From Minisyncoccia bacterium (lineage in GTDB: Bacteria; Patescibacteriota; Minisyncoccia; Phycocordibacterales; Phycocordibacteraceae), in assembly GCA_038912545.1 (NCBI GenBank), contig JBCLFD010000004.1:1-33211 (forward strand): a stretch of DNA of 33,211 nucleotides, in the 5' to 3' direction. The translations under genes and the position numbers were made by a program. Positions within the stretch are counted from its first letter, which is position 1. Each line of letters begins with the position of its first letter. Positions 19,621-22,207 of this stretch are shown here, one piece after another. The notes below the pieces were generated by a model. It ran no database searches and was not told the DNA's origin. It worked only from the letters and a program-made list of their open reading frames with translations.

Positions 19621-19806
19621 TCGCGGTGTGACTTCGGTCGCACCGCGAAGGACTAGGACGATTGTAGGGTGAACAGAATGCACCAAGTTACCTGAGTATG
19701 GAGTAATCCGTACTTTGTCCAACAATGACTCAAATGAGAGGCCATACGTCATGATCCGCGCAAGCGGAATAAGATATGGTCCTTCGCGTGTTAAAAGGAA
19801 ACGAAG
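19621..19806 (+). mobile_element. 186-nt group I-like intron after 23S U1931-equivalent, no ORF
   Basis: Splits GTCCTAAGGT|AGCGCAATTCC; follows U, ends in G; P7 gaggcca/tggtcc, J8/7 AAGATA, P8 tccgc-gcaa-gcgga. Confidence 0.8.
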
Positions 19807-20548
19807 AGCGCAATTCCTTGTCGAGTAATTTTCGACGTGCACGAATGGTGTAACGACTGGGGGACTGTCTCGAGGACTGGCTCGGTGAAAATGCAATTCC
19901 GGTGAAGATGCCGGATACCTGTAGTTAGACGAAAAGACCCCAGGAGCTTTACTACAGCTTCGTATTGGCCCTACGTGATTCATGCGTAGCATAGGTGGGA
20001 GGATTTGAAGCGAGGGTTTCGGCTCTCGTGGATCCGTCAGTGAAATACCACTCTTGAATTGTGTAGTGTCTAACCCTGTTGGGATCCAACAGGGGACCGT
20101 GCGTGGCGGGTAGTTTTGGTGGGGCGCTATCCTCCTAAAAAGTAACGGAGGAGTCTATTAAGGTTCTCTAGGCGCGAATGGAAACCGTGCCGATAGTGTA
20201 ATGGCAAAAGAGAGCTTAACTGCGAGGGGTACATCCCAAGCAGATGCGAAAGCAGAGCATAGTGAACCGATGGTACGCTTTAGATGCGGCCAGAGATTAA
20301 CGGATATAAGTTACCCTGGGGATAACAGGCTAGTTCCGCCCAAGCGTCCATAGCGACGGCGGAGTTCGGCACCTCGATGTCGGCTCAACATAGCGCGGGG
20401 GTGAAGAAGCTCCCAAGCGTTTGGCTGTTCGCCAATTAAAATGTTACGTGAGCTGGGTTCAGACCGTTCAGCATCTCATTGATGAGATGGGAGATTGAAC
20501 GGTCTGAATCCACGAGGAAATGTTAGGCACGTGGAGACGTGCTGTGCG

Positions 20549-20611
20549 TCCCGTTAGAGACAAGAACTTCACCAAAGTTCTGGCTTGCTAAAGCAAGCGT
20601 CTCTAACGGGA
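20549..20611 (+). repeat. 63-bp MITE-like element, family D copy 2 (inside L2593 intron)
   Basis: Identical to 17376-17435 except in one hairpin loop. Confidence 0.9.
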
Positions 20612-20726
20612 TGCGATAAGACAACTCACGGCGGTCGCGCGCAGGAATGCGCGTGTAAGCAAATCAACTGATATCGGTGGAATCCGCTTTTAATGCGGCG
20701 GACAATACCGAGGGAATAGAGACGGA

Positions 20727-20794
20727 AAGCAGTAAGCAGTAAGCAGTAAGCAGAAATTCTCTGCCTACCGCCTACCGCATTCTGCCTACTGTTT
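20727..20794 (+). repeat. Heptamer-array foldback element, family C copy 2 (in intron P6)
   Basis: aagcagt x3 + aagcaga, loop, then tctgcct accgcct accgcat tctgcct actgttt. Confidence 0.85.
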
Positions 20795-20952
20795 TTGGCC
20801 CTTAGAGACTGAATGTTGATCACCCTAACTAATAACATAGCGGGTGGTGTTACAGTCCGATCCCCGCAGTAATGCGGGTCAACTGGATGCGTGAGACAGG
20901 TTGGTCTCCTATCTACTACAGGCGTTGATTCTTGAGGAGGGTCGTCCCTAGT

Positions 20953-21769
20953 AAAGAATTGCTACTTCAGAGAGAGATCTCTGATGACAACGTGGCTTAT
21001 AACGGTGAAGTCTACGACTCATCTGGTATTAGAGGGCGGTATCCGAAGGTCCAGTGGATATCGAACTCGCTTGAGGACCAGAATGACGCTATGATAATAC
21101 CGTGGGAAGTCGACCAAATATTAAGGATGCAGATCTCGCGTATATTGCGGGTTTCTTGGATGGAGATGGAAGTCTCATGCTCCAATTGAAACGCCGCAGC
21201 GACTCTATGCGTGGTGTGCGATTCATGGCAACGATGTGTTTCTATCAAGATACACGCCATGAAAAGCCGCTTGCATGGATTCGCACGCGACTCGGGTGTG
21301 GTTATGTATCGCATCGAAACGATGGTATGACGGAATTGCGCATCAATGGATTCTCGCAAGTGCGGGAGACGTTGGAAGCATTATTACCGCATCTTCGTTT
21401 CAAAAAGCTCCAAGCCCGCATGCTCATACGAGCATGTCGGCAACTGGAGCGGCAAACGATACGTACCATGTCCGAACGCGAATTACGTTCAATCGTCGAG
21501 CTCTTGCTTAAAATTCAGAATGAAAATTATGCAAGCAAGCGACGAAAAACAAAAGAAGAACTGTATCAGATACTTGGTTTGACCCCGTAACGACTTGCAT
21601 TGAAAGACATGCAGACTCATGTGTTGAGGAATCATTCCGTAGAGAATGACTGCTCATGTGGGTAAGATGCCACCATCCTCGTCCGTCAATTGACGGAACG
21701 GATGAAGATATAGTCTGCGCTCCTGGAAACAGGGGAAACATTAGCTGGGAAATTAACCAGTTAATTGCG
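20953..21769 (+). mobile_element. 817-nt group I intron in the sarcin-ricin loop (after U2656-equivalent) with LAGLIDADG gene
   Basis: Splits CCTAGT|ACGAGAGGACC; P1 tagtaa/ttgcta with U-G at the splice site; ends in G; P ataacggtgaa, Q aataccgtg, R cccgtaacgact, S aagatatagtc. Confidence 0.93.
21102..21590 (+). CDS. Single-motif LAGLIDADG homing endonuclease (intron-encoded)
   Basis: LAYIAGFLDGDGS motif, FYQ, LG.GYV, LLPHLRFKK.QA; GTG start inside Q element, stop inside R element. Confidence 0.93.
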   Translation: MGSRPNIKDADLAYIAGFLDGDGSLMLQLKRRSDSMRGVRFMATMCFYQDTRHEKPLAWIRTRLGCGYVSHRNDGMTELRINGFSQVRETLEALLPHLRFKKLQARMLIRACRQLERQTIRTMSERELRSIVELLLKIQNENYASKRRKTKEELYQILGLTP

Positions 21770-22092
21770 ACGAGAGGACCGGGATGAACTGACCTCTGGT
21801 CTACCAGCTGTCCTGCCAAGGGCACCGCTGGGTAGCTATGTCGGGTCGTGATAACCGCTGAAAGCATATAAGCGGGAAACATGCTCCAAGATTAGGAATC
21901 GTTATGAGGCTCCTAGGAGATGACTAGGTTGATAGGCTCCAGGTGGAAGCGCGGTAACGCGTTGAGCCGAGGAGTACTAATATGCCCAGTCTCTCGTGCG
22001 GAACTCTGAACAACACAATTTTACCCAGCACTAGAGTTTAGTTCTTGGTATACCTATATGCTATAAGTGAACAAAGTTCATTGTGTGTTTAG

Positions 22093-22207
22093 TGCTGGTG
22101 CTTTGGCGGTGGGGTCACACCCGATCTCATTCCGAACTCGGCAGTTAAGCCCGCTTGCGCCGATGGTACTCAGCGTATCAGTTGGGGAGAGTAGGTAGGC
22201 GCCAGCA
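22093..22207 (+). rRNA. rrf: 5S rRNA
   Basis: CACACCCGATCTCATTCCGAACTCGGCAGTTAAGC, GCCGATGGTACT, GGGAGAGTAGGT; terminal helix tgctggtg/cgccagca. Confidence 0.96.

What the first reader, a model, noticed from the sequence alone, without database searches (positions are those of the whole stretch)
20953..21769. Homing group I intron inside the sarcin-ricin loop
Seen: the near-universal AGUACGAGAGGA loop is split AGT|ACGAGAGG by a complete intron with canonical P1 U-G, a long P7-P3 insertion (IA-like) and an intact single-motif LAGLIDADG ORF whose start and stop codons overlap the Q and R core elements. The bacterial/organellar LSU sites I know cluster at 1917-1951, 2449-2506 and 2585-2604; I do not recognise 2656 as a common one. 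The endonuclease would be predicted to cut one of the most conserved rDNA sequences. The exon between this intron and the previous one is only 63 nt.
Basis: partly seen in the sequence, partly recalled or inferred. Interest (0 to 1): 0.75.

Follow-up and report, generated by a model that had tools for sequence, protein, structure and literature searches.

The report
Known CPR intron in sarcin-ricin loop
A real, well-formed mobile group I intron with its own homing-endonuclease gene splits the sarcin-ricin loop of this tiny bacterium's 23S rRNA gene, but this insertion site was already catalogued in 2024, so the find is correct but ordinary.

Summary
Observation confirmed. Window 20953-21769 (817 nt) is an insertion between U2656 and A2657 (E. 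coli K-12 rrlB numbering) of a Patescibacteria (CPR) 23S rRNA gene. A hand-drawn group I structure, P1-P9 with an IA-like P7.1/P7.2, is 89.7% paired on 81 homologues against 37-44% when slid. 57 of its 95 pairs show double changes. The P1 U.G is kept in 80 of 80 distinct rows.

A 162-aa single-motif LAGLIDADG ORF (21102-21590) lies in the P6 loop. It is I-CreI/I-MsoI/I-CvuI-like by sequence and by fold and under purifying selection.

In a 201-genome family sample I counted 27 genomes with the intron at this site and 99 with only an empty site. Copies with an ORF, without one and with a truncated one occur in one genus, which fits a homing cycle. All 80 loci kept from a species-wide scan sit at the same site.

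Novelty is low. Tsurumaki et al. 2024 (PMC11270868) list this hot spot as 23IS14, "position 2657", with LAGLIDADG_1 ORFs. This scan has met it on other DNA at least eight times. Still untested: splicing, and the enzyme's cleavage of sarcin-ricin-loop DNA.

The parts
20890..20952 (+). 63-nt 23S exon (E. coli 2594-2656) between the L2593 and L2656 introns; its last base, U2656, is the 5' splice site
   Evidence: aligned by eye to rrlB 2594-2656; BLAST anchors 20467=2593 and 21770=2657
20953..21769 (+). Group I intron (817 nt) inserted after U2656 in the sarcin-ricin loop; ends in G (omega G)
20949..20964 (+). P1: exon TAGT plus intron AA pairs with the internal guide TTGCTA; U2656.G wobble at the splice site
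   Evidence: the U.G pair is kept in 80 of 80 distinct rows; the other P1 pairs are 97-100% paired
20968..20983 (+). P2 hairpin
   Evidence: 5 of 6 pairs have compensatory changes; 99.4% paired
20992..20996 (+). P3 5' strand (pairs with 21669-21673)
   Evidence: 3 of 5 pairs have double changes
21002..21103 (+). P4-P5 domain: P4 21002-07/21098-103, P5 21010-12/21093-95, P5a 21022-27/21077-82, P5b 21032-34/21066-68, distal hairpin 21038-44/21056-62
   Evidence: P4 is nearly invariant; P5 and P5a covary; P5b (77% paired) and the distal stems (56-70%) are weaker
21104..21586 (+). P6 (21104-11 with 21581-86), whose loop holds the ORF
   Evidence: ORF-less relatives join these two strands directly; all 6 pairs are invariant
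21102..21590 (+). LAGLIDADG homing-endonuclease ORF: 162 aa, GTG start, single motif (IAGFLDGDGS)
21591..21717 (+). P7 (21591-95 with 21712-17), enclosing P7.1 (21596-600/21609-13), P7.2 (21618-23/21655-60), the P3 3' strand (21669-73), P8 (21674-78/21700-04) and J8/7
   Evidence: P7 never covaries; 4 of its 5 pairs are invariant and the fifth is unpaired in 16 of 80 rows. All pairs of P7.1 (5 of 5) and P7.2 (6 of 6) and 4 of 5 pairs of P8 have double changes
21720..21735 (+). P9 hairpin with a GAAA loop
   Evidence: 5 of 6 pairs have double changes; 100% paired. Also covaries
21741..21764 (+). Extra 8-bp hairpin (P9.1-like) before the 3' splice site, absent from most copies
   Evidence: present only in the window and L018 within alignment A2; also in L035, and the matching end motif is seen in L057
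21770..21988 (+). 3' exon of the 23S gene, starting at A2657
20468..20889 (+). Neighbouring ORF-less insertion after U2593 (context only)
   Evidence: one search shows joints 20467>20890

Best explanation
This is a mobile group I intron of the CPR '23IS14' class. It sits between U2656 and A2657 of the 23S rRNA gene of a Kaiserbacteria-like Patescibacteria genome.

Inferred mechanism: the intron is transcribed within the pre-23S rRNA. It folds into a P1-P9 ribozyme core with IA-type P7.1/P7.2 and removes itself by the two guanosine-initiated transesterifications. The first cuts after the U.G pair of P1 and the second after the terminal G. This restores an intact sarcin-ricin loop.

The ORF in the P6 loop encodes an I-CreI-type single-motif LAGLIDADG enzyme that presumably acts as a homodimer. 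It would cut the intron-less allele (...GTCGTCCCTAGT/ACGAGAGGAC...) near the insertion point. Repair from an intron-bearing copy would then copy the intron in (homing).

Shown here: the position, the conserved and covarying RNA structure, the intact and selectively constrained ORF, its family and fold, and the patchy mix of ORF-bearing, ORF-less and empty sites among close relatives.

Inferred, not shown: splicing, dimerisation, cleavage and its exact position, and the route of DNA exchange between cells.
For: Position.

RNA structure:
- 95 pairs on 81 sequences are 89.7% paired, against 37-44% when the partners are slid by 1-3 columns.
- 57 pairs show changes on both sides.
- 0 of 500 shuffles reach the observed values.
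- The U.G at the splice site is kept in 80 of 80 rows.

3' end: a terminal G precedes ACGAGAGGA in 79 of 80 loci from the species-wide scan.

ORF:
- Pfam LAGLIDADG_1 scores 34.5 bits against a cut-off of 23.1.
- Best solved relatives are I-MsoI (E 6.8e-22), I-CvuI and I-CreI.
- The AF2 model has pLDDT 89.9 and pTM 0.85.
- Foldseek finds I-CvuI, I-CreI and I-MsoI at E about 1e-12, with TM 0.75-0.82 normalised by query length.
- The motif Asp, the Gln and the Lys that align with I-CreI active-site residues (residue numbers recalled, not from a call) are invariant in 20 of 20 aligned homologues.
- Median dN/dS is 0.14 over 102 usable of 136 pairs.

Homing cycle:
- In a 201-genome family sample I hand-counted 27 genomes with the intron and 99 with only an uninterrupted site, from the listed rows.
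- Of 27 copies examined (this window, 24 congeners and 2 from other families of the order), 17 have an intact ORF, 1 a truncated ORF and 9 none.
- Congeners G210, G073 and G140 carry the empty site with flanks identical to this window's.

Site fidelity: 80 of 80 kept loci carrying the protein lie at this site, and 76 of 80 show the 5' splice-site pattern.

Print: PMC11270868.
Against: - The Rfam group I score is below the gathering threshold (30.3 against 50 bits).
- P4 and P6 are invariant or nearly so, and P7 has no double changes, so they give no covariation evidence. They also overlap or abut coding sequence.
- I saw no convincing P10.
- The ORF starts with GTG, and I saw no obvious ribosome-binding site.
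- The 22-bp target is only weakly palindromic: at best 6 of 11 symmetric positions, one base left of the insertion point.
- There is no direct evidence of splicing in this organism (see Tried and rejected).
- In the literature CPR genomes usually hold one rRNA operon, so homing needs DNA to pass between cells, which is not shown.
Confidence: 0.9

Rival explanations
1. The intron is real, but the ORF product now serves mainly as a splicing helper (maturase) or is otherwise domesticated. On this reading the element is inherited vertically and no longer homes.
For: Some LAGLIDADG proteins are maturases (established knowledge, not tested here). The ORF's ends are interwoven with the ribozyme core at P4/P6 and J6/7. 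The strong purifying selection fits any protein function.
Against: The residues that align with the I-CreI catalytic Asp, Gln and Lys are invariant in 20 of 20 homologues. Nine ORF-less copies keep the whole ribozyme core, so the core does not visibly depend on the protein. ORF-bearing, ORF-less and empty sites are mixed within one genus, which is the pattern expected of recurrent gain and loss.
Confidence: 0.07
2. The insert is an intervening sequence that is cut out without ligation, leaving a fragmented 23S rRNA, rather than a spliced intron.
For: Fragmenting intervening sequences exist in bacterial 23S genes, and Tsurumaki et al. suggest that some CPR insertions are of that type (section 5). 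Splicing was not shown here.
Against: The full group I core is kept and covaries in 81 copies, with the U.G splice site and the terminal G. A break inside the sarcin-ricin loop would destroy a universally conserved functional loop (established knowledge).
Confidence: 0.02
3. The insertion is an assembly or binning artefact: a chimeric join of rRNA with foreign DNA.
For: This is a metagenome-assembled genome. One related genome's contig ends exactly at this site (G218), and another holds both alleles on two contigs (G015).
Against: The same junctions recur in more than 100 independent assemblies. The exons on both sides are colinear with E. coli rrlB.
Confidence: 0.01

Closest known systems
CPR 23S rRNA insertion hot spot 23IS14, 'position 2657': group-I-like introns that mostly encode LAGLIDADG_1 proteins (Tsurumaki et al. 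2024, J Bacteriol, PMC11270868)
   Same: Same host group, same insertion point (between 2656 and 2657), the same ORF family and the same single-domain architecture.
   Different: Nothing essential. In the parts I read (abstract, sections 5-7, and two keyword rows of the supplement), the paper gives the site only as a catalogue entry. It does not describe this class's secondary structure, the ORF's place in L6 or a within-genus census. The enzyme it tested (I-ShaI) is from site 23IS7, not this one. Its supplementary figures are pictures that I could not read.
Cr.LSU, the Chlamydomonas chloroplast 23S intron with I-CreI, and its isoschizomers I-MsoI and I-CvuI (site L2593)
   Same: A single-motif LAGLIDADG enzyme of the same family and fold. 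I recall, from no call, that Cr.LSU is an IA-type group I intron in a 23S gene with its ORF in the P6 loop.
   Different: A different insertion site (2593 against 2656) and therefore a different DNA target. Only 23-28% identity in the structural alignments. Bacterial rather than organellar host.
Bacterial 23S group I introns at L1917, L1931 and L1951 (Coxiella, Thermotoga, Simkania, cyanobacteria)
   Same: Group I introns in bacterial 23S genes, often with LAGLIDADG ORFs.
   Different: Other sites and other intron lineages. These examples are recalled or seen only as search listings; I did not read them.

Membership tests
Group I intron (Rfam RF00028) | P1 helix with a U.G wobble at the 5' splice site, formed with an internal guide sequence | tested here: met
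   U.G in 80 of 80 distinct rows; P1 pairs 97-100% paired
Group I intron (Rfam RF00028) | Conserved core P3-P8 with the P3/P7 pseudoknot, supported by covariation | tested here: met
   P3, P5, P7.1, P7.2, P8 and P9 all have pairs with double changes. P6 never varies, P4 has one double change in one row, and P7 has none, so these three say nothing either way
Group I intron (Rfam RF00028) | Terminal guanosine (omega G) at the 3' splice site | tested here: met
   Window base 21769 is G; 79 of 80 scan loci end in G before ACGAGAGGA
Group I intron (Rfam RF00028) | Score at or above Rfam's gathering threshold | tested here: not met
   30.3 bits against 50; E 6.6e-5 and 1.4e-5. The 489-nt ORF in L6 and the extra P7.1/P7.2 stems are the likely cost
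Group I intron (Rfam RF00028) | Self-splicing activity | not testable with these tools
   No usable RNA evidence (see Tried and rejected)
Subgroup IA (P7.1/P7.2 between P7 and P3') | Two extra hairpins between the P7 5' strand and the P3 3' strand | tested here: met
   all 5 pairs of P7.1 and all 6 of P7.2 have double changes (89-90% paired). No formal subgroup model (GISSD) was available
LAGLIDADG_1 (PF00961), I-CreI-type single-motif homing endonuclease | Pfam score above the curated cut-off, one LAGLIDADG motif with its acidic residue | tested here: met
   34.5 against 23.1 bits; motif residues invariant in 20 of 20
LAGLIDADG_1 (PF00961), I-CreI-type single-motif homing endonuclease | The alpha-beta-beta-alpha-beta-beta-alpha core fold | tested here: met
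   pLDDT 89.9; order of elements H E E H E E H; I-CvuI, I-CreI and I-MsoI at E about 1e-12, TM 0.75-0.82 by query length
LAGLIDADG_1 (PF00961), I-CreI-type single-motif homing endonuclease | Homodimer that cleaves the intron-less allele | not tested
   Inferred from the family only. I did not send a complex-prediction job, because a pass would rest on likeness to solved I-CreI dimers
CPR 23IS14 insertion class (Tsurumaki 2024) | Insertion at E. coli 23S 2656/2657 in a CPR genome, with a LAGLIDADG_1 ORF | tested here: met
   position; close relatives named Kaiserbacteria, Paceibacterota, Minisyncoccota; ORF family

The most novel reading that the evidence does not exclude
The enzyme is an active homodimeric meganuclease with a natural specificity that nobody has characterised. 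Its roughly 22-bp site would be centred at or next to G2655/U2656 of sarcin-ricin-loop DNA. The lineage would have reached this site by an ectopic switch from the I-CreI/I-MsoI (L2593) group. In the exons I examined, the bases TAGT before the splice site and ACGAGAGGA after it are constant, and the last five and first eleven bases are the same in E. coli. The enzyme might therefore cut the rDNA of almost any bacterium that lacks the intron, including the hosts these episymbionts live on.
Probability: 0.2. Interest if true: 0.45.

Novelty: already known. Interest (0 to 1): 0.15.

Why it matters
It matters little as a discovery. It is one more copy of a class of CPR rRNA introns that is already in print, and this scan has flagged the class repeatedly.

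Some value remains:
- The class now has a covariation-supported secondary structure: IA-like, ORF in L6, coding ends interlaced with P4/P6 and J6/7.
- One genus shows the whole homing cycle side by side.
- The endonuclease would be a natural meganuclease aimed at one of the most conserved DNA stretches in bacteria, and nobody has yet assayed it.

Tried and rejected
(1) RNA evidence for splicing.
- The look-up of sequencing runs gave only small shares (0.14 or less).
- I laid contigs of four RNA runs at 90% likeness. Exon bins have summed depths of 1e2-1e6 and intron bins about 0-24.
- One contig each in X3 and X14 joins 20952 to 21770, but with only 20 letters on the shorter side.
- Exon depth sums many organisms, and congeners carry the intron-less allele in DNA. 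This cannot show splicing in this organism, so I give no verdict.

(2) Searches for the site in print.
- 'L2656' plus 'intron': 0 papers.
- 'L2656' matched anywhere: 34 papers; the 20 listed are unrelated.
- 'sarcin-ricin loop' plus 'group I intron' plus 'homing endonuclease': 0 papers.
- '2656' plus 'group I intron' plus 'LSU': 2 papers, unrelated by title and abstract.
- Only Tsurumaki 2024 names the site, as '2657'. Subscription journals and the CRW and GISSD catalogues are not in the library, so an older organellar report cannot be excluded.

(3) Palindromy of the target. It is weak, at best 6 of 11, so I could not place the cleavage site.

(4) Kinship of the neighbouring L2593 and L1931 inserts with this intron. 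Short-word BLAST found nothing better than a 13-nt match in the P4'/P6 region at E about 1.

(5) First attempt at E. coli numbering. It used a strain whose 23S copy is 2894 nt and gave shifted numbers. I redid it on K-12 rrlB.

(6) Coordinate slips.
- My query started one base late (20954).
- My notes first gave the L2593 insert as 20478-20889; the correct range is 20468-20889.
- The first structure string had P5a one base out of register. I corrected it before counting.

(7) Previous notes for this genome around this place: none.

Full report
WHAT IS THERE. The window carries a 23S-5S rRNA unit. Rfam finds bacterial LSU rRNA from 17508 and 5S rRNA at 22094-22207. The 3' end of the 23S gene is found separately at 21738-21988.

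BLAST against E. coli K-12 rrlB (2904 nt; locus L127) shows colinear blocks with three breaks:
- window 19620/19807 corresponds to rrlB 1931/1932;
- window 20467 corresponds to 2593;
- window 21770 corresponds to 2657.

In rrlB the T of AGT|ACGAGAGG is base 2656. The exon before it (20890-20952) is 63 nt and aligns base for base with rrlB 2594-2656. The previous insert is 20468-20889 (422 nt, no ORF) after U2593.

IS IT A GROUP I INTRON. Rfam's RF00028 matches 20940-21736 at 30.3 bits. That is below the gathering score of 50, with E 6.6e-5 in a 5.3-kb search and 1.4e-5 in a 1.1-kb search. This alone is weak, so I collected homologues.
- From 61 close relatives, 15 genomes (G000 included) matched the intron. 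In 12 of their 14 loci the match is bounded by ...TAGT| and G|ACGAGAGGACC. One locus has an uninterrupted site and one is uninformative.
- I aligned 81 copies with 10-nt exon flanks: the window, 18 from its order, and 62 from a species-wide scan (A2).
- I wrote a structure by hand on the window sequence and counted it.

Results of the count:
- 95 pairs are 89.7% paired, against 37-44% when the 3' partners are slid by 1-3 columns.
- 57 pairs have changes on both sides.
- None of 500 shuffles reaches any observed measure.
- P2, P3, P5/P5a, P7.1, P7.2, P8 and P9 covary.
- P6 never varies, P4 shows a single double change in one row, and P7 never covaries; its outermost pair is unpaired in 16 of 80 rows. 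These three add nothing either way.
- The splice-site U.G is kept in 80 of 80 rows.
- The distal P5 stems are only 56-70% paired and are the least certain part.

The structure was derived from one of the sequences. That alone inflates the figure for cells paired, but it does not inflate the double changes. No subgroup model was available for a formal call. The window copy has an extra 8-bp hairpin (21741-21764) before the 3' splice site, which only a few other copies share.

THE ORF. 21102-21590 encodes 162 aa from a GTG. ORF-less relatives join GGGAAGTCG... directly to ...TTGACCCCGTAA, so the ORF occupies the P6 loop. The GTG overlaps the P4 3' strand and P6. The last codons form the P6 3' strand, and the TAA lies in J6/7 just before P7.

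Evidence on the protein:
- Pfam LAGLIDADG_1 scores 34.5 bits against a cut-off of 23.1.
- The best solved relatives are I-MsoI (E 6.8e-22 for a tandem construct), I-CvuI (1.8e-17) and I-CreI (about 1e-8).
- An AF2 model built from 20 homologues has pLDDT 89.9 and pTM 0.85.
- The model matches I-CvuI, I-CreI and I-MsoI at Foldseek E about 1e-12, with TM 0.75-0.82 by query length and 23-28% identity.
- D22, Q49 and K101 align with I-CreI D20, Q47 and K98 and are invariant in 20 of 20 homologues. The I-CreI numbers are recalled, not from a call.
- Among 17 intact copies, median dN/dS is 0.14 and the maximum 0.25, over 102 usable of 136 pairs. Synonymous sites are near saturation, so the ratio is rough.

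DISTRIBUTION.
- The protein search returned 2407 hits at E<=1e-3. All of the 120 best listed are at least 60% identical, and where named they are Kaiserbacteria, Minisyncoccota or Nomurabacteria.
- In all 80 kept loci the ORF is followed by ACGAGAGGA, and in 79 of them a G precedes it.
- 76 of the 80 show [CT][CT]TAGT|A... followed by the GCTAC guide upstream.
- The record titles span many Patescibacteria lineages, plus one MAG labelled Elusimicrobiota, which I did not check.
- A strict 3'-end pattern found 19 of 401 phylum-sampled genomes, in 19 genera, against 2 hits for the reversed control pattern. The window itself misses the pattern because of its extra hairpin. This is a lower bound.

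HOMING CYCLE IN THE FAMILY. I searched 201 genomes drawn from the window's family; 151 and 148 of them held the 23S 3' end. Using a natural intron-less allele (L045) as the query, I hand-counted the listed rows; 38 further matches were not listed.
- 100 genomes have a match that spans the junction.
- 27 genomes have a match that begins exactly at the junction.
- Of those 27, G218 is a contig end. The other 26 all matched the intron.
- G179 has the intron's 5' end.
- G015 has one contig of each kind.

That gives 27 intron-bearing genomes and 99 with only an empty site, out of 126 informative. All 27 are in the window's genus. None of the 29 genomes of the two other genera had the intron; all had spanning matches.

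Of 27 copies examined (this window, 24 congeners and 2 from other families of the order), 17 have an intact ORF of 159-172 aa (introns 776-859 nt). One has a truncated ORF (618 nt). Nine have no ORF (337-426 nt) but keep the core. G210, G073 and G140 hold the empty site with flanks identical to the window's. This is the pattern expected of invasion, ORF decay and loss.

WHAT IS NOT SHOWN. Splicing, dimerisation and cleavage are not shown. RNA-run contigs could not separate this strain's spliced rRNA from the rRNA of intron-less relatives. The target is only weakly palindromic: 6 of 11 positions, centred one base left of the insertion point. I therefore cannot place the cut.

COMPARISON WITH PRINT. 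I read the abstract and sections 5-7 of Tsurumaki et al. 2024 (PMC11270868) and ran one keyword search of its supplement.
- They surveyed 348 CPR 23S genes and defined 14 frequent insertion sites.
- They state that LAGLIDADG_1 proteins predominate at positions 1917, 1931, 1952, 2593, 2604 and 2657 (23IS6-8 and 12-14).
- They state that group I introns at 23IS9, -10, -11, -13 and -14 had not been reported in known bacteria.
- The enzyme they assayed, I-ShaI, is from 23IS7.

So the site and its ORF family are catalogued, but the site's own enzyme is not characterised. Four other literature searches found no earlier naming of L2656. The CRW and GISSD catalogues are not in the library.

Earlier follow-ups in this scan reached the same verdict on at least eight other genomes. 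I consulted them after forming mine.

VERDICT. The interpretation as a homing group I intron is well supported. The novelty claim fails, and interest is low.

Noticed in passing
window 19621-19806: A 186-nt insertion between E. coli 23S positions 1931 and 1932. The 5' exon ends in T and the insert ends in G. It contains an AAGATATGGTCC-like J8/7-P7 motif, so it may be a very compact ORF-less group I intron at the known L1931 site. Rfam reports nothing for it at E<=1.
   Followed up: partly
window 20468-20889: A 422-nt ORF-less insertion after U2593 (site 23IS12 of the 2024 catalogue). It shares only a 13-nt P4'/P6-like match with the sarcin-ricin-loop intron. It holds a repeat-rich hairpin (a GCAGTAA repeat facing a CTACCGC repeat, about 20723-20792). 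Some RNA-run contigs of relatives skip 20686-20798.
   Followed up: partly
G015 (contigs C13 and C20) and G218:C38 (loci L025, L042): One related genome has both an intron-bearing and an empty sarcin-ricin-loop site on separate contigs. In another, a contig ends exactly at the insertion point. Either could reflect strain mixtures in which both alleles coexist.
   Followed up: no
L114 (record titled Elusimicrobiota bacterium MAG156): The same intron and endonuclease occur on a 6.7-kb contig binned outside Patescibacteria. This could be mis-binning or a real occurrence beyond the phylum.
   Followed up: no
window 21048-21052 and 21075-21079: Two conserved five-base motifs in the P5 domain, GGTCC and GGACC, are perfectly complementary to each other. 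Covariation instead supports pairing the second one's last three bases in P5a. The first may make a tertiary contact (by eye).
   Followed up: no
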